From positions 75,733 to 139,732 of the forward strand of contig CAVYYH010000005.1 of the NCBI GenBank assembly GCA_963772705.1: a stretch of 64,000 nt of DNA. Reading direction: 5' to 3'. The notes beneath the pieces were generated by a model. It searched no databases. It was not told the origin of the DNA and saw only the letters and a program-made list of their open reading frames with translations. The stretch is from an uncultured Bacteroidales bacterium. GTDB taxonomy: Bacteria > Bacteroidota > Bacteroidia > Bacteroidales > VadinHA17. Below, piece after piece: positions 39,808 to 48,900 of this stretch. The translations under genes and the position numbers were made by a program. The first letter of the stretch is position 1; each line of letters opens with the position of its first letter.

Positions 39808-42800
39808 ATGCAGGAGAGAAGAGGCTTTTGCGGAACATTTTCGGTTTGTTCATTAGCCTGGCTGCTTCTTTTCCTTGTTGCCACACCCCGCGACGCTGCC
39901 GGACAGAACTACTATTTTCAGCATCTGAGCTCGAAGGAAGGGCTGAGTGCATCAAAGATCTACACCATCATTCAGGATGCCAACGACTTCATCTGGCTGG
40001 GGACAGGCAGCGGGGTGACACGTTTTGACGGCCTGCGGTTTGAAAATTTCTCAACGTCAGACGGCCTTGCCCCGGGGGGAGTGAAAAGCATACTCGAAGA
40101 CAGCTACGGACGGATATGGATGGGTCATATAGGAGGCGGCATGTCACTCCTCGAGGGTGACATCTTCAAGAGAGTCTCCTTCTCCTCGGTATTATTCTCC
40201 GGGCCTGACTCAGTGAGAGTCTCAGACGCCGAAGGACCTGTCTTTAACCTCAGGGGAGACGTGACAGGCATCAAGGAATTTGACAGTTATCTCTGGATTT
40301 CTACCTCACTCGGCGGGGTGCTGAAGCTTGACCAGCCTGAACCGGGAGTCACCGTCATGTCCGGACGACAGTACCTGGGGCGTGACGGACTGAGCAATGA
40401 TGCATTCGGGTTCCATTCAGACCGTGACGGAAACCTCTATTGCATCACCGATGTCGGGATAAGGAAGTACAACTATGAGACTGACCGCTTCGATCCCTAC
40501 AGCCCTGACGGTCTGACAAAGTACTTCCTTACAATAACAATGTTCGAGGATTCCAGGGGCAATATGTGGTTCGGGACATATAACGGAGGCCTCTATAAGC
40601 TTGACAAAGAGAGCGGCAGGATGGATATATATGATACCCGTAACGGCCTCTGGGGGAACTTTGTCACTTATGTTACCGAGGATTACCGGGGCAATATATG
40701 GGCATCATCAATGGAAGACTGGGAGAGCAAAGGCGGTATCACCGTCTTCTCCCCTGAGGGAACTGTTGTCTTCAACAGTACGAACGGGCTCAACTCACTG
40801 CATCCCCTTTGCATGCTTGAGGACAATGAGAAGAATGTCCTCATTGCTGACAGGGATGCAGGGCTGTTCATATACAAGGGTGACCACCTTACGTCATATA
40901 ACGCACCGCAGTTCCTGCTGTCGAATGATGTTTCTTCCATTGCCCAGGACCAGGAAGGAAGATACTGGTTCGGCACGCGCGAGGGATTGTCAATTTATGA
41001 TCCGGAGAAAAAGGAGGGTGGCAGCACTGACCTGGCAGGCCTTCCCGCCAGCCTTAAAGGAAAACAGATAAGCATCATAAAACCCGGCAGTGACGGATAT
41101 GTGTGGATAGTAACGGCGGAGGATGAGGTTTTCAGGTATGACCTGAAGGAGAAAACCAGCCGCTTTGATCTTGACCTGAATGCAAAGCTTCACTCGCTGA
41201 GGATTGCTGCAATTGAGACTGATGATAACGGGAATCTGTGGATCGGCACTCACAAGGCTCTTGTTTCATGGAATAGTGAGACCAGGGAGAGCTATACCTT
41301 CACGGAGGGGCATGGACTGACAGGTAACAATATAACATCGCTTTTCAAAGACAGTAACGGGTTTCTCTGGATCGGCACAGAGGAACGAAACGGGCTGACT
41401 AAGCACCATCCGGGAAGATCAGTATTCACGACGGTGGAAATTGGCGCCGACGTCAGGCCCAACGCCATTGCTGAGACCTCTGACGGGACAATCTGGGTGG
41501 GAACGATAGACGGTCTTTACGCTCTTCGGGCTGACACGGTGTGGAAGAAGCTGACAGAGACCGACGGATTGCTGATGAACTCAATAAACCTGCTGCAGTC
41601 AGACGGGGCCGGAAACCTGTATATCGGTACAAACCTGGGGCTCAACAGATATGACACTTCGACGGGTAAGATATCTTCATTCACTGAGAAGAACGGGTTC
41701 ACAGGTATTGAGACGAGGCCCAATGCAGCTTTTGCTGACAGCGGAGGCGACCTGTGGTTCGGGACCAGCAACGGCGCCATCCGGATGAGCCCTTCCCGTC
41801 TGCCCCCTGTAGTAACTGAGCCGGCAACGCATATCTGGAGGACACTTGTCAACCTCGAACCATATCCGATGTATGATGGCATCCGCCTCCCGCATTCAAT
41901 GAACAGGATCGCCTTTGACTTCCTCAGCATCTGCCTGGTGAACCCGGCAGCGGTGAAATACCAGTTCATGCTCGTCGGGAACGATGAAGACTGGATCTCC
42001 ACTGACCAGACCAGTGCAATGTATTCGTCAATCAGTCCCGGCAAGTATACCTTCATGGTCAGGGCTTCAAACAATTACGGATACTGGAACGAGACCCCTG
42101 TTACCCTTGGTTTTACAATAAAAGCACCATTCTACCAGACTTTCTGGTTTATACTACTGGTTATTCTGGCGGTAATAGGGGCAATTTATTTGATTATCAG
42201 CATGCGCGAACGAAACCTGCTGAGAGAAAAGGAGGTGCTTGAGGAGAAGGTTGAGGAGCGTACTGCAGAGGTTGTGACCAAGAGCCTGGAGCTTGAGGAA
42301 AAGAACAGGGACATCACTGCCAGCATAAGGTATGCCGAACGTATTCAGAGGGCTATGCTGCCCCCGGAAAACTATTTCAATAAGACCTTTGTACTATTCA
42401 TGCCGAAGGACATCGTCAGCGGTGATTTTTACTGGATGTATGACAGCGGCGACAAGCAGTATATTGCCGTTGTTGACTGTACCGGACACGGTGTGCCGGG
42501 TGCGTTCATGTCGATAATAGGGCACAACTCACTCAACAAGGTGGTCAAGGAGAACGGCATCCGCAGGCCTGCCGAAATACTCGATCATCTGAATATTGAG
42601 GTCGTCCATGCACTGCTGCAGCGCAGTGAGAAGGCAGTGCGTGACGGGATGGATATTTCAATCGTCTCTTATGATCCCCGCGAACATTATATTGAGTATG
42701 CCGGCGCCTACCAGTCACTCTATCTGGTTCGTGACGGAACTGTATCAATCTTCAAGGCTGACCGATTTCCCATCGGTATGATTGACGGGCATGAGAAGAA

Positions 42801-43053
42801 GAACTTCACCAATCACAGGCTTGATGTAAGAAAGGGAGATATGCTCTATCTCTTTACTGACGGTTATGCCGACCAGTTTGGAGGGGCCGATGAGAAAAAG
42901 TTCAAGACAATAAACATAAGGCGTCTCCTCTCAGATATCTATCGTCATCCCGAGGACGATCAGAAGCGGCTCCTCGAGAGAGCTATCCGCAACTGGATGG
43001 GCAGTGTACCCCAGATCGACGACATCCTGATCGTCGGGACAAGAGTGCCATGA
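39808..43053 (+). CDS. Beta-propeller / Y_Y_Y sensor with SpoIIE (PP2C) phosphatase output
   Basis: Repeated ED..G.IW.GT propeller blades, PGKYTFMVRA, one TM segment, coiled coil, VSGDFY, DCTGHGVPGAFMS, DGMD, TDGYADQFGG, DDI. Confidence 0.9.
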   Translation: MQERRGFCGTFSVCSLAWLLLFLVATPRDAAGQNYYFQHLSSKEGLSASKIYTIIQDANDFIWLGTGSGVTRFDGLRFENFSTSDGLAPGGVKSILEDSYGRIWMGHIGGGMSLLEGDIFKRVSFSSVLFSGPDSVRVSDAEGPVFNLRGDVTGIKEFDSYLWISTSLGGVLKLDQPEPGVTVMSGRQYLGRDGLSNDAFGFHSDRDGNLYCITDVGIRKYNYETDRFDPYSPDGLTKYFLTITMFEDSRGNMWFGTYNGGLYKLDKESGRMDIYDTRNGLWGNFVTYVTEDYRGNIWASSMEDWESKGGITVFSPEGTVVFNSTNGLNSLHPLCMLEDNEKNVLIADRDAGLFIYKGDHLTSYNAPQFLLSNDVSSIAQDQEGRYWFGTREGLSIYDPEKKEGGSTDLAGLPASLKGKQISIIKPGSDGYVWIVTAEDEVFRYDLKEKTSRFDLDLNAKLHSLRIAAIETDDNGNLWIGTHKALVSWNSETRESYTFTEGHGLTGNNITSLFKDSNGFLWIGTEERNGLTKHHPGRSVFTTVEIGADVRPNAIAETSDGTIWVGTIDGLYALRADTVWKKLTETDGLLMNSINLLQSDGAGNLYIGTNLGLNRYDTSTGKISSFTEKNGFTGIETRPNAAFADSGGDLWFGTSNGAIRMSPSRLPPVVTEPATHIWRTLVNLEPYPMYDGIRLPHSMNRIAFDFLSICLVNPAAVKYQFMLVGNDEDWISTDQTSAMYSSISPGKYTFMVRASNNYGYWNETPVTLGFTIKAPFYQTFWFILLVILAVIGAIYLIISMRERNLLREKEVLEEKVEERTAEVVTKSLELEEKNRDITASIRYAERIQRAMLPPENYFNKTFVLFMPKDIVSGDFYWMYDSGDKQYIAVVDCTGHGVPGAFMSIIGHNSLNKVVKENGIRRPAEILDHLNIEVVHALLQRSEKAVRDGMDISIVSYDPREHYIEYAGAYQSLYLVRDGTVSIFKADRFPIGMIDGHEKKNFTNHRLDVRKGDMLYLFTDGYADQFGGADEKKFKTINIRRLLSDIYRHPEDDQKRLLERAIRNWMGSVPQIDDILIVGTRVP

Positions 43054-43083
43054 TCCGCAGCCCGGCAGGGGCTTTATTAAACT

Positions 43084-43124
43084 TCAGATTCTTGCGATCA
43101 CTTTCGGATCGGCATGCCAGCCGG
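43084..43124 (-). repeat. Displaced duplicate of the LOG gene 3' end (att-like site)
   Basis: Encodes GWHADPKVIARI-stop; 35/41 identical to 44957-44997, all six differences synonymous. Confidence 0.9.
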
Positions 43125-43204
43125 CATGATTGATTTTTTTCAATTTGGGACGCAGAGTCAGATTTTTTGTACAAATAGAAAAACAGCCCCCCGATTTTCA
43201 TATC

Positions 43205-43212
43205 TAACTTTG
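43205..43212 (+). promoter_or_regulatory. -7 promoter element (TAACTTTG) of the islet cargo gene
   Basis: TAnnTTTG about 63 nt upstream of the ATG. Confidence 0.5.
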
Positions 43213-43275
43213 ATCTGAATGTGACATTCGCATGATTGGATTTGATATCTCCTTATACCTAGGTTTAATCAAAAT

Positions 43276-44754
43276 ATGAAGCTTATGAAAAAGATGATGT
43301 TTCTCTGGTTCATTGCAACTGTTTGTATTCTTGCATCTTGCACAAAGGATGGCGGGATTGACCCCGTCATTGATTCTTCCGACAACTTGCTCAAAGGCAA
43401 GCCTGTACAAGGGCCTGTGGTTGTCCTTCCGCCTTCAGGCGGAGATGATACCGACGCGCTCCTTGATGCAATAAACTCATCCGCAGCGGGTACCACAATT
43501 CAGCTTACTGAGGGTGAATATCATACAAGGTACTTTGAAATACATGGCTTTAACGGCGTAATAAAAGGGGCAGGCAGAAATAAGACATTCATTATGCCTT
43601 ATGAACTGATAGAGGTCATGCCCCAGATTAATGACTGGAATAAAATGCCCTCATGGTGGCGCATACTGGGAGGCAACGTAACTATCTCTGACCTGACGTT
43701 CAGGACTGGTGACGGGACTCTTCTGGCAGATGATGACCCCTTCTACAATGATGCCCTGGTATCACTGATAACGGTCAACAACTTCAGTCTTAATTACCAG
43801 TATAATGACCCGCAGCCGATGACATTCAACTTTATCAATGTCGATGTGCTGGGCGGATTTCTTGGTCCTGATGAGGTGGGTTATGCTGGCCTTCCTCATA
43901 ATGTGGTTATGGCCGTGTGGTTCGGTATGGATATCTGGGTCCCCACTGAGCCCATTCCGCTGAGTATCATCACATGCAATTTGTCCGGCTGCCACTTCGA
44001 AGATGTCGGCCAGGGTTTTGAAGCGTTGGGATGCGGAGACAATTCAACTTTAATATTTGACCGGAACAGGGTCGACAATGCCGCATGGGGAGCATTCTTC
44101 ACAGGTAATTATGGTTCAAAAATCTGGATAACGAACAACACTATTTCCGGTTCCATGATATATGATCTCCTGATCTCGGATTGGGAATGGGGTCTACTCG
44201 GCGCTACCCCGATTCCGGCAAAAAGAAGTGAATATTATATTACCGGGAATACCTTTAATGTAAGTAATGTGATCAGTTCTTTTATACTAAAGGATGAAAG
44301 GGGAGTTGCCGTACCTGATTTCTACTTCCCAACACTTGCCCTCGTAAAAAATAACCTGTTCAACCTGTGTGAGGGAAGCACAGGGATAAGCTGCCTTAAC
44401 AGCTGTGACGCCCAGGTGAGGAATAACAGGCTTGCCGGCAGCGCAGCTTACGGTGTATATGTTGACGGAGTTGTCGTTTACGATATATGGACGGGATCCG
44501 AACTGGGGATCGGTGAATCGAAGAATGCACTCCTCCTTGGCAACAATTTCTCTTCGCTGACAACTTCCGGATCAGACATCTATCTGAGTGCTCTGTCTTC
44601 AAATTGTACAGTTGTCGGCAACGGCAAGGATGATGTCATTGACCTTGGAACCGATAACAAGATAGTCGGTATGAATAAGATGTCAGGTGGCAATCATGCC
44701 GGTCCTGCTATCCGCGACAACTTCAGGATGATGCCGAAGATGAGGGGTCATTGA
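43276..44754 (+). CDS. Lipoprotein with predicted right-handed parallel beta-helix
   Basis: Lipobox LASC; DDTDALLDAI..TIQLTEGEY..IKGAG cap and Asn-ladder repeats (ITNNTI, ITGNTF, VKNNLF, VRNNRL, LGNNF). Confidence 0.7.
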   Translation: MKLMKKMMFLWFIATVCILASCTKDGGIDPVIDSSDNLLKGKPVQGPVVVLPPSGGDDTDALLDAINSSAAGTTIQLTEGEYHTRYFEIHGFNGVIKGAGRNKTFIMPYELIEVMPQINDWNKMPSWWRILGGNVTISDLTFRTGDGTLLADDDPFYNDALVSLITVNNFSLNYQYNDPQPMTFNFINVDVLGGFLGPDEVGYAGLPHNVVMAVWFGMDIWVPTEPIPLSIITCNLSGCHFEDVGQGFEALGCGDNSTLIFDRNRVDNAAWGAFFTGNYGSKIWITNNTISGSMIYDLLISDWEWGLLGATPIPAKRSEYYITGNTFNVSNVISSFILKDERGVAVPDFYFPTLALVKNNLFNLCEGSTGISCLNSCDAQVRNNRLAGSAAYGVYVDGVVVYDIWTGSELGIGESKNALLLGNNFSSLTTSGSDIYLSALSSNCTVVGNGKDDVIDLGTDNKIVGMNKMSGGNHAGPAIRDNFRMMPKMRGH

Positions 44755-44760
44755 AATTTA

Positions 44761-44936
44761 CAGGTCGCCCCTACAGGGCTGATAATTATTAATGACCATT
44801 ATCCCTACTAACAGTCCGCTCCTATGGAGCTGGCAGACGTGTTGCTGTGGGAGTGGCTTGATTATGGCCGCGTAGCGGCGCCCTGTTTGTAGCAACATGA
44901 CCGGGCCATACCAACCAGCCCTGTAGGGGCGACCTG
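44761..44936. repeat. 176-bp REPIN/MITE-like element with perfect 21-bp terminal inverted repeats
   Basis: CAGGTCGCCCCTACAGGGCTG (44761-44781) and its exact reverse complement (44916-44936); inner hairpins GCTCC-TAT-GGAGC and GCCGC-GTA-GCGGC. Confidence 0.85.
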
Positions 44937-44956
44937 ATTAATTGTTGTTTCGGAAA

Positions 44957-45532
44957 TCAGATCCTGGCAATGACCTTCGGGTCGGCATGCCAGCCGGTGT
45001 AGTTCCTGATTGCCGGTATCACCTCACGGGCTTCGGTGACTATCTGCCATATATCCTTATGCTCAAGCCTCATGAAATGGCCTCTGACCATGTGGTCGAA
45101 GAACTCGATGAGATGGTCATAGAAACCGTTGACATTGACGATTATTATCGGTTTGTTGAACTGCCCCAGCTGCTTCAGGGTGATCACTTCAGTCAGTTCC
45201 TCGAGCGTCCCAACCCCTCCGGGGAGGGCAACCGCTGCGTCAGACATTGCGAAGATTGTTTTCTTCCTCTCTGACATGTCAGCCGTTATTATCATGTCTT
45301 TAACGTCGTCATGCCCCCATCCTTCCGACATCATGAAACCGGGTATCACGCCGGTGACAGACCCGCCTGATTTAAGCAGGTTATCGGCAAAGATGCCCAT
45401 CAGGCCTATGCCACCACCACCGAAGACGGCATGAACCTTCTCTTCGGCAAAAGCCCTGCCCAGTTCGGCTGCTGCCGTCTCATAGGCATGATCGATGCGG
45501 CTGCTGGAGGCAGCAAAAACGCATACCCTCAT
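44957..45532 (-). CDS. LOG family nucleotide phosphoribohydrolase (TIGR00730-like)
   Basis: GGGGIGLMG, MSERK, LPGGVGTLEEL. Confidence 0.92.
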   Translation of the reverse strand: MRVCVFAASSSRIDHAYETAAAELGRAFAEEKVHAVFGGGGIGLMGIFADNLLKSGGSVTGVIPGFMMSEGWGHDDVKDMIITADMSERKKTIFAMSDAAVALPGGVGTLEELTEVITLKQLGQFNKPIIIVNVNGFYDHLIEFFDHMVRGHFMRLEHKDIWQIVTEAREVIPAIRNYTGWHADPKVIARI

Positions 45533-45853
45533 TTACTGGAGAAGTGCTGTTAGCTTGGCCTCAAAAGCTGACTTGGCAGCTGCCCCGACCTGCTTGTCAA
45601 CCACCTGACCACCCTTGAAGTAAAGCACAGTTGGTATATTGCGTATCATGAATCTCCTGGCAATATCAGGAGAAGTGTCTACATCACACTTTACAACCAG
45701 GGCTTTGTCACTGTAAGCCTCACCTATCTGTTCGATCAAAGGGGCTATCATCCTGCATGGGCCACACCACTCAGCCCAGAAATCGACTATTACAGGTTTA
45801 TCTGATTTCAATACGATCTCGTCAAAATTTGCATCGTTAACTGCTTGTGCCAT
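45533..45853 (-). CDS. trxA: Thioredoxin
   Basis: DFWAEWCGPC. Confidence 0.97.
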   Translation of the reverse strand: MAQAVNDANFDEIVLKSDKPVIVDFWAEWCGPCRMIAPLIEQIGEAYSDKALVVKCDVDTSPDIARRFMIRNIPTVLYFKGGQVVDKQVGAAAKSAFEAKLTALLQ

Positions 45854-45901
45854 AATAAATTAATAGTTTATGAATTCTTACTTAATGAAGTACAAAGATA
45901 T

Positions 45902-48900
45902 CTAATTTACTTTAAAGTCGAGCCCGGGATTATCTTCAAGCCAGCCGATGAGCTCATTGGTAATGCCGGCTTTTATGCTGCGCGAGAAGAGGGGCAGTGT
46001 TATCTTGTCTTCATGATCTATCAACAGGAATTTCACTGTTTTGTTTCCGGGGTTTTCAGAAATGATTGTTTTGAGGTTGTCGACGAATCCGGGATTAACC
46101 AGCTCGGTCTTGAGTTTAATTGTAATTGAGCTTATCAGGTCATCCCTGACGGCGGAGAGCAGGTGTACCTCCCTGATCCTGAATTCGAGCTCGTCGGGGT
46201 TATAGTGTCTGCCCTGAACCTTTCCCCTTACAAGAAGGTGATAATCAGTCACAAAGAAATTGCTGAAGGTAACATAATCCTTGTCGAACAGGAGGAAGGT
46301 GAACGAGTCTGTATAATCCTGCAGGGTGAATCCTCCGAAAGGTTTGCCGTTCTTGGTGACGCCGCTTCTTGTCTCGGTCACTATACCTGCAACACATACA
46401 TCACGGTTTGCAAATTCATGAAGATTCTGCAGGTCAGCCAGTGTTGCATTGCAGAAGGCGTTTATTTCAAGACGGTAGTCGTCGAGCGGGTGTGATGACA
46501 GGTATATTCCAATGACCTGTTTCTCCTTATTGAGTTTCTCCAGTTTTGACCAGTCGGCGCATGGTGCCGGTTCGGGGCGCACGAGTTCGAATCCGCCTGC
46601 TTCGCCGAAGAGCGACTGCTGACTGCTGTTACGAAGGTTTTTCACGCTGCTGCCGTAACGGATAAGACTCTCGAGGAAGCTTGAGCCCTTGCTGTCGGCA
46701 GAGAAATACTGTGCCCTGCTGATACCCGGAAGGCCGTCGACGGCACCTGACACCACCAGCGCCTCGAGCATCCTTTTGTTGACAGTGTTGAGATTGACAC
46801 GTTCTGCGAGGTCGTAGATGTCTTTGTACGGGCCGTTCTTCTCTCTCTCTTCTATAATGTTCAGCACCGCATTCTCGCCTACCCCCTTTATGGCTCCGAG
46901 TCCGAACCTGATATTCCCGGCCCGGTTTACGGTGAACTGCAGCAGACTCTCATTGACATCGGGCCCCAGTACGTCAATACCCATTCTGCGGGTCTCCTCC
47001 ATCATCACGGTGATCTTCTTGATGTCACTTATGTTGCGGCTGAGAACGGCAGCCATGAACTCTGCAGGGTAGTTGGCTTTCAGATAGCCTGTCTGGTAGG
47101 CGATGAGTGCATAGCAGGTTGAATGCGATTTATTGAAGGCATATTCTGCGAACGACTCCCAGTCTGACCATATCTTGTTGATGATGCTTATGTCATACCC
47201 ATTCTTCTGGCATCCCGCTACAAACTCAACCTTGAGCCTGTCCATTATGTCCCGCTTCTTTTTGCCCATGGCTTTGCGAAGCGAGTCTGCCTGCCCCTTG
47301 CTGAATCCTGCCAGTTCCTGTGAGAGAAGCATCACCTGTTCCTGGTATACTGTGATGCCGTATGTCTCCTGCAGTAACCGCTCCATTGCAGGAAGCTCAT
47401 ATTTTATCTTCTCTCTCCCGTGCTTGCGTTTGATGTACTGAGGGATATAATCCATCGGGCCTGGCCTGTAGAGTGCGTTCATGGCGATGAGGTCACCGAA
47501 CTGGTTGGGCTTGAGGTCACGCAGGTACCGTTTCATGCCGACGGATTCAAACTGGAACACCCCTGTCGTCTCTCCGTTGCTGAAGAGCTCATAGGTGTGG
47601 ACGTCATCAAGAGGCAGTGTCTCCAGGTCAATGGTGATCCCCTTTGACTTCTTTATGTTTTCGACTGCGTCCTTAAGGATAGAGAGGGTCTTGAGCCCCA
47701 GGAAATCCATCTTCAGCAGCCCTATGGCCTCCACATGGTTCCCTTCGTACTGTGTCACATAAAGGTCTGTGTCTTTTGCCGTACAGATGGGAACATATTC
47801 GCAAAGATTCTCCTTGCTGATAATGATTCCGCAAGCATGCACCCCTGTCTGCCTGATGCTTCCCTCAAGCACCTCGGCATACTTGAGTGTCTGTGCTACA
47901 AGCGGCTCCTTTGACTCTCTCTCTTTCAGCAACTCAGGTACCTCTTCGTATGCGGCAGAGAGAGTAATGCCCGGCCGTTCGGGTACAAGCTTCGTCAGCC
48001 TGATAGCCTCCGGCAGTGGCAGCTTCTGTACCCTGGCGACATCCCTGATGGCCATCTTGGCTGCCATCGTCCCGAAGGTGATAATATGCGCTACCCTGTC
48101 GTGACCGTATTTGTCAACAACATATTTGAGCACCTTCTCCCTGCCGTCTTCATCAAAGTCGATGTCGATATCAGGCATTGAGATACGGTCAGGATTAAGG
48201 AACCTCTCGAAGAGCAGGTTATATTTCACCGGGTCGATATCCGTTATCCTCAGTGCATATGCGACAGCGCTGCCTGCCGCGGAGCCTCTGCCGGGACCCA
48301 CCCAGACACCCATTTCACGGGCAGCCCTGAGAAAGTCCTGTACTATGAGGAAGTAACCCGGGAAGCCCATGTTCTTTATTACTGACAGCTCGAAGTCTAT
48401 GCGTGCCTCCAGGTCAGGGGTGATCTCACCCCAGCGTTCTGCCGCACCTTTCATTGTCAGGTGACGCAGATACTCATCCTTGTCTTCGAAATCTGCCGGA
48501 ATCGAAAACTCAGGCATGATAGGTTCACTGCCCAGAGAATAATATTCGACCTTGTCTGCTATTTCCTTTGTATTGAGGACCGTCTCAGGCATGTCTGCAA
48601 AGACAGAGAGCATCTCCTCCTCGCTCTTCAGATATTCCTCCTTGGTGTACCGGAGTCTTTTCGGATCGTCGATGTCGGCAGCGGTATTGATGCATATAAG
48701 CCTGTCATGTGCTTCCGCCTCGTCTGCCATGATGAAATGAACGTCATTTGACGCGATGATCTTGACTCCGTATTTTACTGCCAGTTCACGGTAGGCTGCT
48801 ATGACCCTCTGCTGCTCGGGAAAGACTGTGGTGTCTGCTGTCGGGTCGGCCGTCTCATGTCTCTGTATCTCAAGATAATAGTCGTCGCCGAATATCTCCT

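What the first reader, a model, noticed from the sequence alone, without database searches (positions are those of the whole stretch)
43084..44997. Integrase-less islet inserted into the 3' end of a LOG gene, supplying a synonymous replacement gene end
Seen: 43084-43124 and 44957-44997 are 41-bp direct repeats. Both read GWHADPKVIARI-stop on the minus strand, which is the LOG C-terminus. Their six mismatches are all at third codon positions (AGA/AGG, GCA/GCC, ATC/ATT, GTG/GTC, AAA/AAG, GAT/GAC), and a 16-bp identical core (TCGGCATGCCAGCCGG) lies at the gene-proximal end. Between them are only a promoter, a beta-helix lipoprotein gene and a REP-like element. Known: integrative elements that target genes carry a replacement 3' end. 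Inference: both ends evolved under protein-level selection, and a cargo gene was delivered at this site without a resident integrase. It could be a trans-mobilised cassette, a decayed island, or short-homology capture of a foreign LOG 3' flank. I do not know of LOG as a described integration target.
Basis: partly seen in the sequence, partly recalled or inferred. Interest (0 to 1): 0.8.

Follow-up and report, generated by a model that had tools for sequence, protein, structure and literature searches.

The report
Strain-variable gene islet in LOG tail
A 1.9-kb piece of DNA carrying one sugar-polymer-enzyme-like lipoprotein gene really was spliced into the last codons of a housekeeping (LOG) gene, bringing its own synonymous copy of the gene's tail. 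It looks like a scar of ordinary recombination between related bacteria, not a new kind of mobile element.

Summary
The two 41-nt repeats match at 35 of 41 positions, both read GWHADPKVIARI-stop, and all six differences are at third codon positions.

The closest relatives, G050 and G064, have the empty site: SpoIIE, the same 30-31-nt spacer, and one LOG tail. So 1,873 bp were inserted.

- **Left copy.** It is the displaced native tail. It differs from G050 at 2 positions.
- **Right copy.** Its outer 16 nt are imported. It differs from G050 at 4 positions in 16 nt, then at none for 122 nt, and it matches a G049-like allele.
- **Crossover.** It lies in a 32-nt invariant tract, 44973-45004.

No recombinase lies in the islet, and the genome has only three tyrosine recombinases, none on this contig. 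In 59 genus loci where LOG abuts SpoIIE, the spacer reaches at most 213 nt, so no larger element sits there. The "core" is simply the best-conserved part of a conserved coding tail.

LOG-tail remnants of other lengths occur without cargo in at least five other species. The cargo is a hypervariable beta-helix lipoprotein whose alleles are swapped between near-identical backgrounds.

My best reading is host recombination in the conserved tail: one-sided homology capture, then spread by homologous exchange. A decayed or trans-mobilised integrative element is not excluded. Interest is modest.

The parts
39808..43053 (+). Sensor-phosphatase gene (Reg_prop repeats, Y_Y_Y, SpoIIE/PP2C domain). It is the native convergent neighbour of LOG.
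   Evidence: Pfam hits. It is adjacent to LOG in 58 genus loci plus G044.
43054..43083 (.). Native 30-nt spacer between SpoIIE and the original LOG stop.
   Evidence: A near-identical spacer occupies the empty sites of G050 (31 nt) and G064 (30 nt), each with about 3 differences.
43084..43124 (-). Copy A: the displaced native LOG tail, a non-functional remnant (stop plus 12 codons plus 2 nt).
   Evidence: It differs from the G050 functional tail at 2 of 41 positions and from G064 at 3 of 41. L095 has the same remnant with different decay, including TGG to AGG.
43125..43275 (+). Upstream/promoter region of the cargo gene. The left end of the imported DNA is at 43125.
   Evidence: It is homologous to the upstream regions of L095, L096 and G077, and weakly to L097, with the TAACTTTG-like motif kept. 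Among 65 genus genomes it is found only in G000.
43276..44754 (+). Cargo: a 492-aa lipoprotein with a right-handed beta-helix, probably polysaccharide-active. It is hypervariable between strains.
   Evidence: Pfam PF13229. AlphaFold model with pLDDT 85.6. Best solved-fold matches are a mannuronan C5-epimerase, a fucoidan lyase and the RbmB lyase, E 3e-7 to 1e-5 and TM 0.4-0.58. Homologue identities run 95, 84, 72, 65, 60 ... 26%.
44755..44956 (.). REP-like hairpin element. It is two inverted roughly 75-nt units with 21-nt perfect arms at 44761-44781 and 44916-44936. It probably terminates both convergent genes.
   Evidence: Inverted repeat I1. It is a dispersed repeat in relatives: 36 matches in G069, 10 in G064, 4 in G049. 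The loop is found inverted in L095 and in a contig of run X4 (table 5).
44957..44997 (-). Copy B: the functional LOG tail. Its outer 16 nt (44957-44972) are imported with the islet.
   Evidence: Mismatches between G000 and G050 fall at 44963, 44966, 44969 and 44972, then none until 45095. G000 and G049 differ at only 1 position in 44957-45004.
44973..45004 (.). Interval that contains the right-hand (homologous) crossover. It is a 32-nt tract identical in G000, G050 and G049.
   Evidence: alignment and mismatch lists.
44957..45532 (-). LOG (TIGR00730 / PF03641) gene, intact, 191 aa.
45533..45853 (-). Thioredoxin gene, part of the conserved dnaE-trxA-LOG block that gives the right-hand homology.

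Best explanation
**What it is.** The 1,873 bp are a non-autonomous, strain-variable islet. It holds one beta-helix lipoprotein gene with its own promoter, plus a REP-type hairpin.

**How it got there.** It entered the chromosome through the host's own recombination in the conserved last codons of LOG.
- SpoIIE and LOG are convergent genes that abut in this genus. Of 58 loci, 26 have a spacer of 0-2 nt. DNA can therefore only be added between them if one gene end is rebuilt.
- DNA from a related lineage (a G049-like LOG allele) already had the cargo gene and the hairpin next to its own LOG tail.
- Its right end recombined homologously inside the 32-nt invariant tract 44973-45004.
- Its left end was joined at 43124/43125 with no detectable homology.
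- The native tail (copy A) was left stranded beside SpoIIE. The imported tail (outer 16 nt of copy B) now ends the gene without changing the protein.

**What happens afterwards.** The islet is bracketed by two copies of a sequence that nearly every genus member conserves. It can therefore be passed on, lost or refilled by ordinary homologous exchange. This also explains why the lipoprotein allele differs greatly between near-identical backgrounds.

**Shown.** The insertion and the empty sites; which copy is native; the crossover interval; the absence of a recombinase; the recurrence of tail remnants in other species.

**Inferred.** The nature of the left join (illegitimate join, or an exchange within a donor's own remnant); the route of DNA transfer; the function of the cargo.
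For: 1. **Empty sites.** G050 aligns at 96.6% to 42444-43124 and at 96.8% to 44957-46532. Its single tail aligns to both copies. G064 behaves the same way. Both share the 30-31-nt spacer.
2. **Tree.** The LOG+trxA tree gives ((G014,G049),(G064,(G050,(G000,L095,L097)))), with 100/100 support for G050 plus the G000 group. One gain on the G000 branch is the most parsimonious history.
3. **Mosaic at the right end.**
   - 4 of the 29 G000-G050 mismatches in 904 nt fall in the first 16 nt of the tail (P about 9e-4).
   - G000 and G049 have 1 mismatch in the first 48 nt against about 15% elsewhere (P about 3e-3).
   - G049 also has the right hairpin arm and the spacer next to its tail.
4. **The left copy decays independently** in G000 and L095.
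5. **No recombinase.** The islet has one ORF of note. PF00589 has 3 hits in the genome, none on contig C5.
6. **The core is conserved coding sequence**, identical in 11 of 61 genus tails, and occurs nowhere else in the genome.
7. **Recurrence without cargo and with other lengths.**
   - 5 of 32 genus spacers of 22 nt or more hold a remnant of their own LOG tail at p<=0.01.
   - G009 has 21 nt whose 4 differences are all synonymous.
   - G062 has 25 nt lying 1 nt after the SpoIIE stop.
   - G012 and G005 have tandem 33-nt units.
   - G079 also has a remnant.
8. **The cargo is chromosomal elsewhere.** Of 29 further loci with homologues, 0 carry a LOG-tail-like 41-mer. Two show the same divergent pairing with a sensor gene that L097 has.
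9. **Allele swapping.** L097 has LOG 99.5% identical in protein and 97.4% in DNA, but its lipoprotein is only 45% identical. A contig of run X3 shares the left junction and then diverges after 43350.
10. **Published models** of one-sided homology capture and displacement of old gene ends: passages read in PMC5361080.
Against: - The donor's left-hand sequence is unknown, so an illegitimate join is inferred, not seen.
- The 2.2-kb contig L096 (lipoprotein 84% identical, LOG 89%) begins with ...GAGAGCCGG directly before the homologous islet start.
  - This fits the same junction in a distant lineage.
  - A fixed attachment site or a circular intermediate would predict that. Independent illegitimate joins would not.
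- The direct-repeat architecture is the same as that of integrase scars.
- Earlier notes of this scan filed similar islets as decayed integrative elements.
- G077 has the cargo between SpoIIE and LOG without any remnant: only 21 nt separate the SpoIIE stop from the homologous upstream region. Its history may therefore differ.
- No transfer route is known for this organism.
Confidence: 0.55

Rival explanations
1. It is a decayed or trans-mobilised site-specific element (CIME-like). An integrase encoded elsewhere, or lost, recognises the LOG tail as its attachment site. Copies A and B are attL and attR, and the islet can still be moved when such an integrase is present.
For: - It has direct repeats of a gene 3' end with an identical 16-nt stretch at the gene-proximal side.
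- The native end lies on the far side and the imported end on the gene side, as a single crossover with a circle predicts.
- L096 may share the junction.
- The cargo allele varies at the same site.
- The CIME definition was read in passages of PMC5704250.
- Similar islets were filed this way in earlier notes (unchecked leads).
Against: - No integrase-bearing element was seen at LOG tails. In 59 genus loci LOG abuts SpoIIE with a spacer of at most 213 nt. In G000 and G077 only the lipoprotein gene lies between them.
- Only 3 PF00589 genes are in the genome. Two are of about 300 residues (Xer-like size; this reading is recalled) and one is 410 residues, on another contig.
- Remnants in other species are 21, 25 and 33 nt long, so they do not end at one fixed crossover point.
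- The core is ordinary conserved coding sequence.
- Nothing in the islet resembles mobile-element genes: PHROGs 0 hits, Rfam nothing.
- Homologous cargo genes elsewhere carry no LOG-tail sequence (0 of 29 loci).
Confidence: 0.2
2. It began as a local tandem duplication of the LOG tail, of the kind seen in other species. The cargo and the hairpin element were inserted between the two copies later.
For: - Tandem 33-nt copies of the LOG tail fill the spacer in G012 (L008) and G005 (L012).
- A short second copy lies in G009 (L014).
- REP-like elements of this family are mobile in relatives.
Against: - Both copies would then start as the native allele. Instead the outer 16 nt of copy B are G049-like and differ from G050 at 4 positions, while the next 122 nt are identical to G050.
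- The imported tract is continuous with the hairpin arm that G049 also has.
Confidence: 0.08
3. It is an assembly artefact in which two strain haplotypes are joined at the shared core.
For: - The genome is in 11 contigs and looks like a metagenome bin.
- The site is polymorphic in nature.
Against: - The copies share only 16 identical nt.
- An independent 27-kb metagenome contig (L095) has the same order, including copy A.
- Contigs from runs of three different studies cover the islet. Contigs of two of them (X1, X3) bridge the left junction and one (X3) bridges the right junction (records 2, 10, 16).
Confidence: 0.02

Closest known systems
Homology-facilitated illegitimate recombination and 'displacement' arrays (Rhs / CDI C-terminal displacement, Vibrio T6SS effector-immunity arrays; PMC5361080, passages read)
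   Same: - Incoming DNA is anchored by a conserved stretch of a resident gene.
- The other end has no homology.
- The old gene end is pushed aside and kept as an orphan, not deleted.
- No integrase is involved.
- The resulting structure then spreads by ordinary homologous recombination.
   Different: - Here the replaced end is synonymous and only 16-48 nt of it are foreign, so the host gene is unchanged.
- The novelty lies in a separate cargo gene, not in a new protein tip.
- The anchor gene is a housekeeping LOG, not a toxin gene.
- The mechanism is inferred, not tested.
CIMEs and other integrase-less remnants of integrative elements in the 3' ends of genes (definition in PMC5704250, passages read)
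   Same: [quoted passage not shown]
   Different: - No related integrase-bearing element was found at this site in the genomes searched.
- Repeats in other species have other lengths.
- The cargo looks like a resident chromosomal gene of the order.
Flexible (strain-variable) genomic islets holding variable surface or glycan-related genes between conserved flanks (recalled concept; no paper read here)
   Same: - The site is empty, filled or differently filled among genomes at 96-97% identity.
- The cargo is far more divergent than its flanks.
- Short assembly contigs break at the flanks.
   Different: It is a very small, single-gene islet, and the insertion scar (a duplicated gene tail) is still legible.

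Membership tests
Site-specific integrative element remnant (CIME-like) | [quoted passage not shown] | tested here: met
   41-nt repeats, 35 of 41 identical, both encoding the LOG tail.
Site-specific integrative element remnant (CIME-like) | Descent from, or co-occurrence with, integrase-bearing elements that use the same site | tested here: not met
   No such element in the genus loci examined. The spacer is at most 213 nt in 59 loci, and G000 and G077 hold only the lipoprotein gene. The genome has 3 PF00589 genes, none on this contig. The wider family was not surveyed for integrase adjacency.
Site-specific integrative element remnant (CIME-like) | Excision to a circle / precise empty site produced by a recombinase | not testable with these tools
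   Only assembled contigs of public runs could be laid. No skipping or backward joint across the islet was listed, which does not prove absence.
Site-specific integrative element remnant (CIME-like) | One fixed crossover core shared by independent insertions | tested here: inconclusive
   L096 may share the CCGG/islet junction, but only 9 nt are visible. Remnants in G009, G062, G012 and G005 are 21, 25 and 33 nt.
Product of one-sided homologous (homology-facilitated illegitimate) recombination | One end lies in homology with a short donor-type tract | tested here: met
   The donor-type tract is 44957-44972 and the crossover lies within 44973-45004.
Product of one-sided homologous (homology-facilitated illegitimate) recombination | The other end is joined without homology, or at a microhomology | tested here: inconclusive
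   The recipient side is known (LOG position 41 from the stop). The donor sequence left of 43125 is not available. The left 151 nt have no other copy in 65 genus genomes.
LOG / TIGR00730 family (target gene) | Match to the family models over the whole length | tested here: met
   PF03641 at 2.4e-37. TIGR00730 at 159 bits against a cut-off of 96. The cytokinin-specific equivalog is below its cut-off (105 against 300), so the substrate is not assigned.
Right-handed beta-helix polysaccharide-active enzymes (cargo) | Parallel beta-helix fold | tested here: met
   PF13229. Model pLDDT 85.6. 98 solved chains at E<=1e-3, the best being epimerases and lyases.
Right-handed beta-helix polysaccharide-active enzymes (cargo) | Catalytic residues / activity | not tested
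   TM scores of 0.4-0.58 and 9-16% identity give the fold only.
REP/BIME-like dispersed palindromic repeats (44755-44956) | Palindromic unit present in many intergenic copies | tested here: met
   Perfect 21-nt arms. 36 matches in G069 (including a tandem array), 10 in G064 and 4 in G049, but only fragments elsewhere in G000. No associated transposase was looked for.

The most novel reading that the evidence does not exclude
The conserved LOG tail is a true cassette site. An unlinked, still unidentified recombinase (or a circular intermediate formed between the two tail copies) inserts and exchanges single-gene cassettes there. Each cassette carries a different allele of a surface glycan-active lipoprotein and brings its own synonymous LOG tail. 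This would amount to a one-slot, integron-like system for surface variation in environmental Bacteroidales. The tail remnants scattered through the genus would then be scars of past cassettes.
Probability: 0.12. Interest if true: 0.7.

Novelty: new member of a known kind. Interest (0 to 1): 0.35.

Why it matters
It is a clean, datable example of how a gene can be added between two convergent genes that leave no room. The incoming DNA rebuilds the last codons of one gene synonymously and strands the old tail.

The same junction shows tail remnants in several other species of the genus. The conserved end of a housekeeping gene therefore acts repeatedly as the border where imported DNA is stitched in.

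The cargo is of ecological interest. It is a hypervariable beta-helix lipoprotein whose alleles differ by up to 55% between otherwise 97%-identical genomes. That points to diversifying selection on a surface or glycan-handling function.

None of this requires a new mechanism. The value is as a well-resolved case, and as a warning that a duplicated gene end without an integrase need not be a decayed mobile element.

Tried and rejected
- **Excision or circular forms.** Only Logan contigs were available. X1, X3 and X4 hold the region, and nothing was laid for X2. No joint skipping 43124 to 44998 and no backward joint was listed, so nothing can be concluded about excision.
- **Rfam on 42900-45100.** One sub-threshold hit (isrL, 15 bits against 35), rejected.
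- **PHROGs and NCBIfam on the cargo.** No family.
- **Earlier notes of this scan near the site and by cargo sequence.** Nothing.
- **Similarity between the inner ends of the islet** (43125-43154 against 44927-44956). The score was reached by 59 of 2000 shuffles, too weak to use.
- **A 50-residue tblastn match of LOG upstream of copy A** (40% identity). It was not examined further. Beyond the 12 tail residues the identity looks like noise.
- **Family-wide LOG search (312 of 349 genomes with LOG).** It was meant for an integrase-adjacency join. I abandoned it because the match table was cut (166 matches not listed), so that test is open.
- **Literature.** In a search for 'lonely guy' with 'integration site' or 'genomic island', none of the 10 listed papers held 'lonely guy'. 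This is only a weak sign that LOG is not a described target.
- **Ancient shared cargo.** Rejected, because most relatives are empty.
- **Chimera.** Rejected by independent contigs.
Full report
**Observation**

43084-43124 and 44957-44997 are 41 nt long, match at 35 of 41 positions and lie 1873 nt apart. Both read GWHADPKVIARI-stop on the minus strand. All six differences are at third codon positions.

The 16-nt core occurs only at these two places in the 3.42-Mb genome. Chance is excluded: about 5e-6 such matches are expected in 64 kb. Only 22% of single-base changes in this tail are synonymous, so six of six by chance is about 1e-4.

The genes are as described:
- a Reg_prop/Y_Y_Y/SpoIIE sensor phosphatase, 39808-43053 (+);
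- a 492-aa Beta_helix protein, 43276-44754 (+);
- LOG (PF03641, TIGR00730), 44957-45532 (-);
- trxA, then dnaE.

**The site in relatives**

The genus holds 65 species genomes here, and LOG was found in 63 of them. I fetched the locus from nearly all of them.

In 58 loci the SpoIIE gene and LOG are convergent neighbours. G044, checked separately, is the same. The spacer is 0-2 nt in 26 loci and 22 to about 210 nt in 32 loci. The arrangement also exists in another family, where G034 has a 9-nt spacer. So the abutting pair is ancestral.

The cargo gene has a close relative in only one other genus genome. G077 has it at 60% identity, between SpoIIE and LOG, on a 1.9-kb contig. Thirteen further genomes have paralogues of 27-38% identity elsewhere.

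**The nearest relatives give a clean empty site**

G050 has LOG 99% identical in protein. It aligns at 96.6% to 42444-43124 and at 96.8% to 44957-46532, and its single tail aligns to both copies. G064 does the same. Both have the same 30-31-nt spacer as 43054-43083.

A LOG+trxA tree gives ((G014,G049),(G064,(G050,(G000,L095,L097)))), with 100/100 support for G050 plus the G000 group. One insertion on the branch to G000, L095 and L097 is the simplest history.

**Which copy is native**

- **Copy A.** It differs from the functional tails of G050 and G064 at 2 and 3 of 41 positions. Copy B differs from them at 4 and 5.
- **Mismatches along LOG against G050.** They fall at 44963, 44966, 44969 and 44972, then none until 45095. 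In all there are 29 mismatches in 904 nt. Four in the first 16 nt has P of about 9e-4.
- **Mismatches against G049.** There is 1 mismatch in 44957-45004, then about 15% divergence. P is about 3e-3.
- **Downstream of the G049 tail.** G049 also has the right hairpin arm and the spacer next to its tail, but no cargo.

So copy A is the native tail left behind. The outer 16 nt of copy B came in with the islet from a G049-like allele. The right-hand exchange lies in the 32-nt tract 44973-45004, which is identical in all three genomes.

Four of the six synonymous differences are therefore differences between two functional alleles. The other two (43102 and 43108) are transitions specific to G000's dead copy. 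The sister contig L095 keeps the G050 bases there and instead has a TGG-to-AGG (Trp to Arg) change in its remnant. Their being synonymous is luck, about 0.05-0.09.

**The structure is real**

L095 is an independent 27-kb metagenome contig. It has SpoIIE, copy A, the cargo at 95% identity, the hairpin, copy B and LOG in the same order.

Contigs from public runs of three studies cover the islet:
- records 2 (X1) and 10 (X3) bridge the left junction;
- record 16 (X3) bridges the right junction.

No joint across the islet was listed. With contigs only, that says nothing about excision.

**The cargo and its variability**

The protein has an LASC lipobox (read by eye), and Ser21-Cys22 are invariant in 16 of 16 homologues. 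The model is confident (pLDDT 85.6) and shows a right-handed beta-helix. Its best solved matches are a mannuronan C5-epimerase, a fucoidan lyase and the RbmB polysaccharide lyase (E 3e-7 to 1e-5, TM 0.4-0.58). This is fold-level evidence for a glycan-active enzyme.

The gene is hypervariable:
- Homologues run at 95, 84, 72, 65, 60 ... 26% identity, and many sit on 1.5-3.5-kb contigs.
- L097 has LOG 99.5% identical in protein and 97.4% in DNA to G000, with a B-type tail. Its lipoprotein is only 45% identical, apart from the last roughly 390 nt and the hairpin arms at 76-84%. Its left neighbour is a different gene, X, a sensor paralogue with no orthologue in G000.
- A contig of run X3 shares the left junction and signal peptide, then diverges after 43350.

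Outside the genus, 29 loci with homologues never have LOG beside them. None carries a LOG-tail-like 41-mer at 11 or fewer mismatches (0 of 29). Two of them (L111, L119) have the same divergent X-cargo pairing as L097.

The cargo therefore looks like an ordinary chromosomal gene of Bacteroidales that reached the LOG tail in some lineages of this genus. The title of the public record behind G077 calls it an uncultured Rikenella species.

**Is there a recombinase or an attachment site?**

- The islet has no such gene.
- PF00589 has 3 hits in the genome: two frames of about 300 residues and one of 410 residues, none on this contig.
- The 16-mer is identical in 11 of 61 genus tails, its 13-mer in 34 of 61, and the tail peptide in 50 of 61. 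Identity of the core in both copies is what conserved coding sequence gives.
- Of the 32 longer spacers, 5 contain a remnant of their own LOG tail at p<=0.01 by 500 shuffles:
  - G009 has 21 nt whose four differences are all synonymous;
  - G062 has 25 nt lying 1 nt after the SpoIIE stop, where its sister G071 has its functional tail, followed by 39 nt and a new tail;
  - G079 has a remnant;
  - G012 and G005 have tandem 33-nt units.
- These remnants have various lengths and carry no cargo. That fits repeated recombination or duplication at a junction where only events that rebuild the LOG end survive. It does not fit one fixed crossover point.

**Mechanism**

The right end is a homologous exchange. 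This is shown.

The left end joins LOG position 41 (CCGG) to islet sequence that has no other copy in the genus. The donor's left flank is unknown, so the kind of join is inferred. Three routes give the same product:
- capture anchored by homology on one side, with an illegitimate join on the other, as proposed for displaced gene ends in T6SS and Rhs loci (passages of PMC5361080);
- exchange with a donor that already had a tail remnant, using the conserved core on both sides;
- a single crossover with a circular copy.

I favour host recombination at 0.55 over a dedicated site-specific system at 0.2. One observation keeps the second alive. Contig L096 (cargo 84% identical, LOG 89%) begins with ...GAGAGCCGG directly before the homologous islet start. 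This may be the same junction in a distant lineage. G077 has no room for a remnant.

**Comparison with what is known**

The product looks like an integrase scar or CIME (definition read in passages of PMC5704250). Earlier notes of this scan filed similar islets that way (unchecked leads). The feature that defines that class is kinship with integrase-bearing elements at the same site. That was looked for in the genus and not found.

The product works like the displacement products of one-sided homologous recombination. It behaves like a small flexible islet.

**Verdict**

This is a new member of a known kind. It is worth recording as a well-resolved case, with modest interest.

**Limits**

- Supplementary files of papers were closed.
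- The tool that fetches contigs for the homologues was closed.
- Only assembled contigs of public runs could be laid.

Noticed in passing
window 44755-44956; L095 4505-4605; G069 (e.g. C18:64081-64629): The hairpin element belongs to a dispersed repeat family of roughly 75-nt units. It has 36 matches in G069 (including a tandem array with a 79-nt period), 10 in G064 and 4 in G049, but only fragments elsewhere in G000. The 134-nt loop between the 21-nt arms is found in the opposite orientation in L095 and in a contig of run X4.
   Followed up: partly
L008 (G012) and L012 (G005), spacer between SpoIIE and LOG: The spacer is built of 3-6 tandem, decaying 33-nt copies of the last 10 codons plus stop of LOG. 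It looks like a spacer born from duplication of a gene tail.
   Followed up: partly
L074 (G062) and L014 (G009), spacer between SpoIIE and LOG: These are two further cases of a stranded LOG tail beside SpoIIE with a different functional tail after 39 nt (G062) or 4 nt (G009). In G009 all four differences in 21 nt are synonymous.
   Followed up: partly
L097 2-4482; L111; L119: The beta-helix lipoprotein family is divergently paired with a roughly 915-aa Reg_prop...SpoIIE-type sensor (X) in three unrelated contigs. This hints at a regulator-target pair. In G000 the cargo sits instead behind a paralogous sensor gene.
   Followed up: partly
genus-wide, SpoIIE/LOG junction (window equivalent 43053/43084): In 26 of 58 loci the two convergent stop codons are only 0-2 nt apart, so there is no room for a terminator between the genes.
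   Followed up: no
L067 (G044) about 1575-1660: The spacer holds two tandem copies of a roughly 40-nt unit that is unrelated to the LOG tail.
   Followed up: no
window 43125-43154 vs 44927-44956: The first bases of the islet and the last bases before copy B are weakly alike (TGATTGATT..TTTC against TGATTAATTG..TTTC). The score was reached by 59 of 2000 shuffles.
   Followed up: partly
L004 (G014), L084 (G055), L036 (G077), L096: Several assemblies break within or just beside the LOG tail or the cargo gene. Contigs end 26-49 nt past the LOG stop, or are 1.9-2.2-kb contigs holding only the cargo. This is what strain variation at this site would produce.
   Followed up: no
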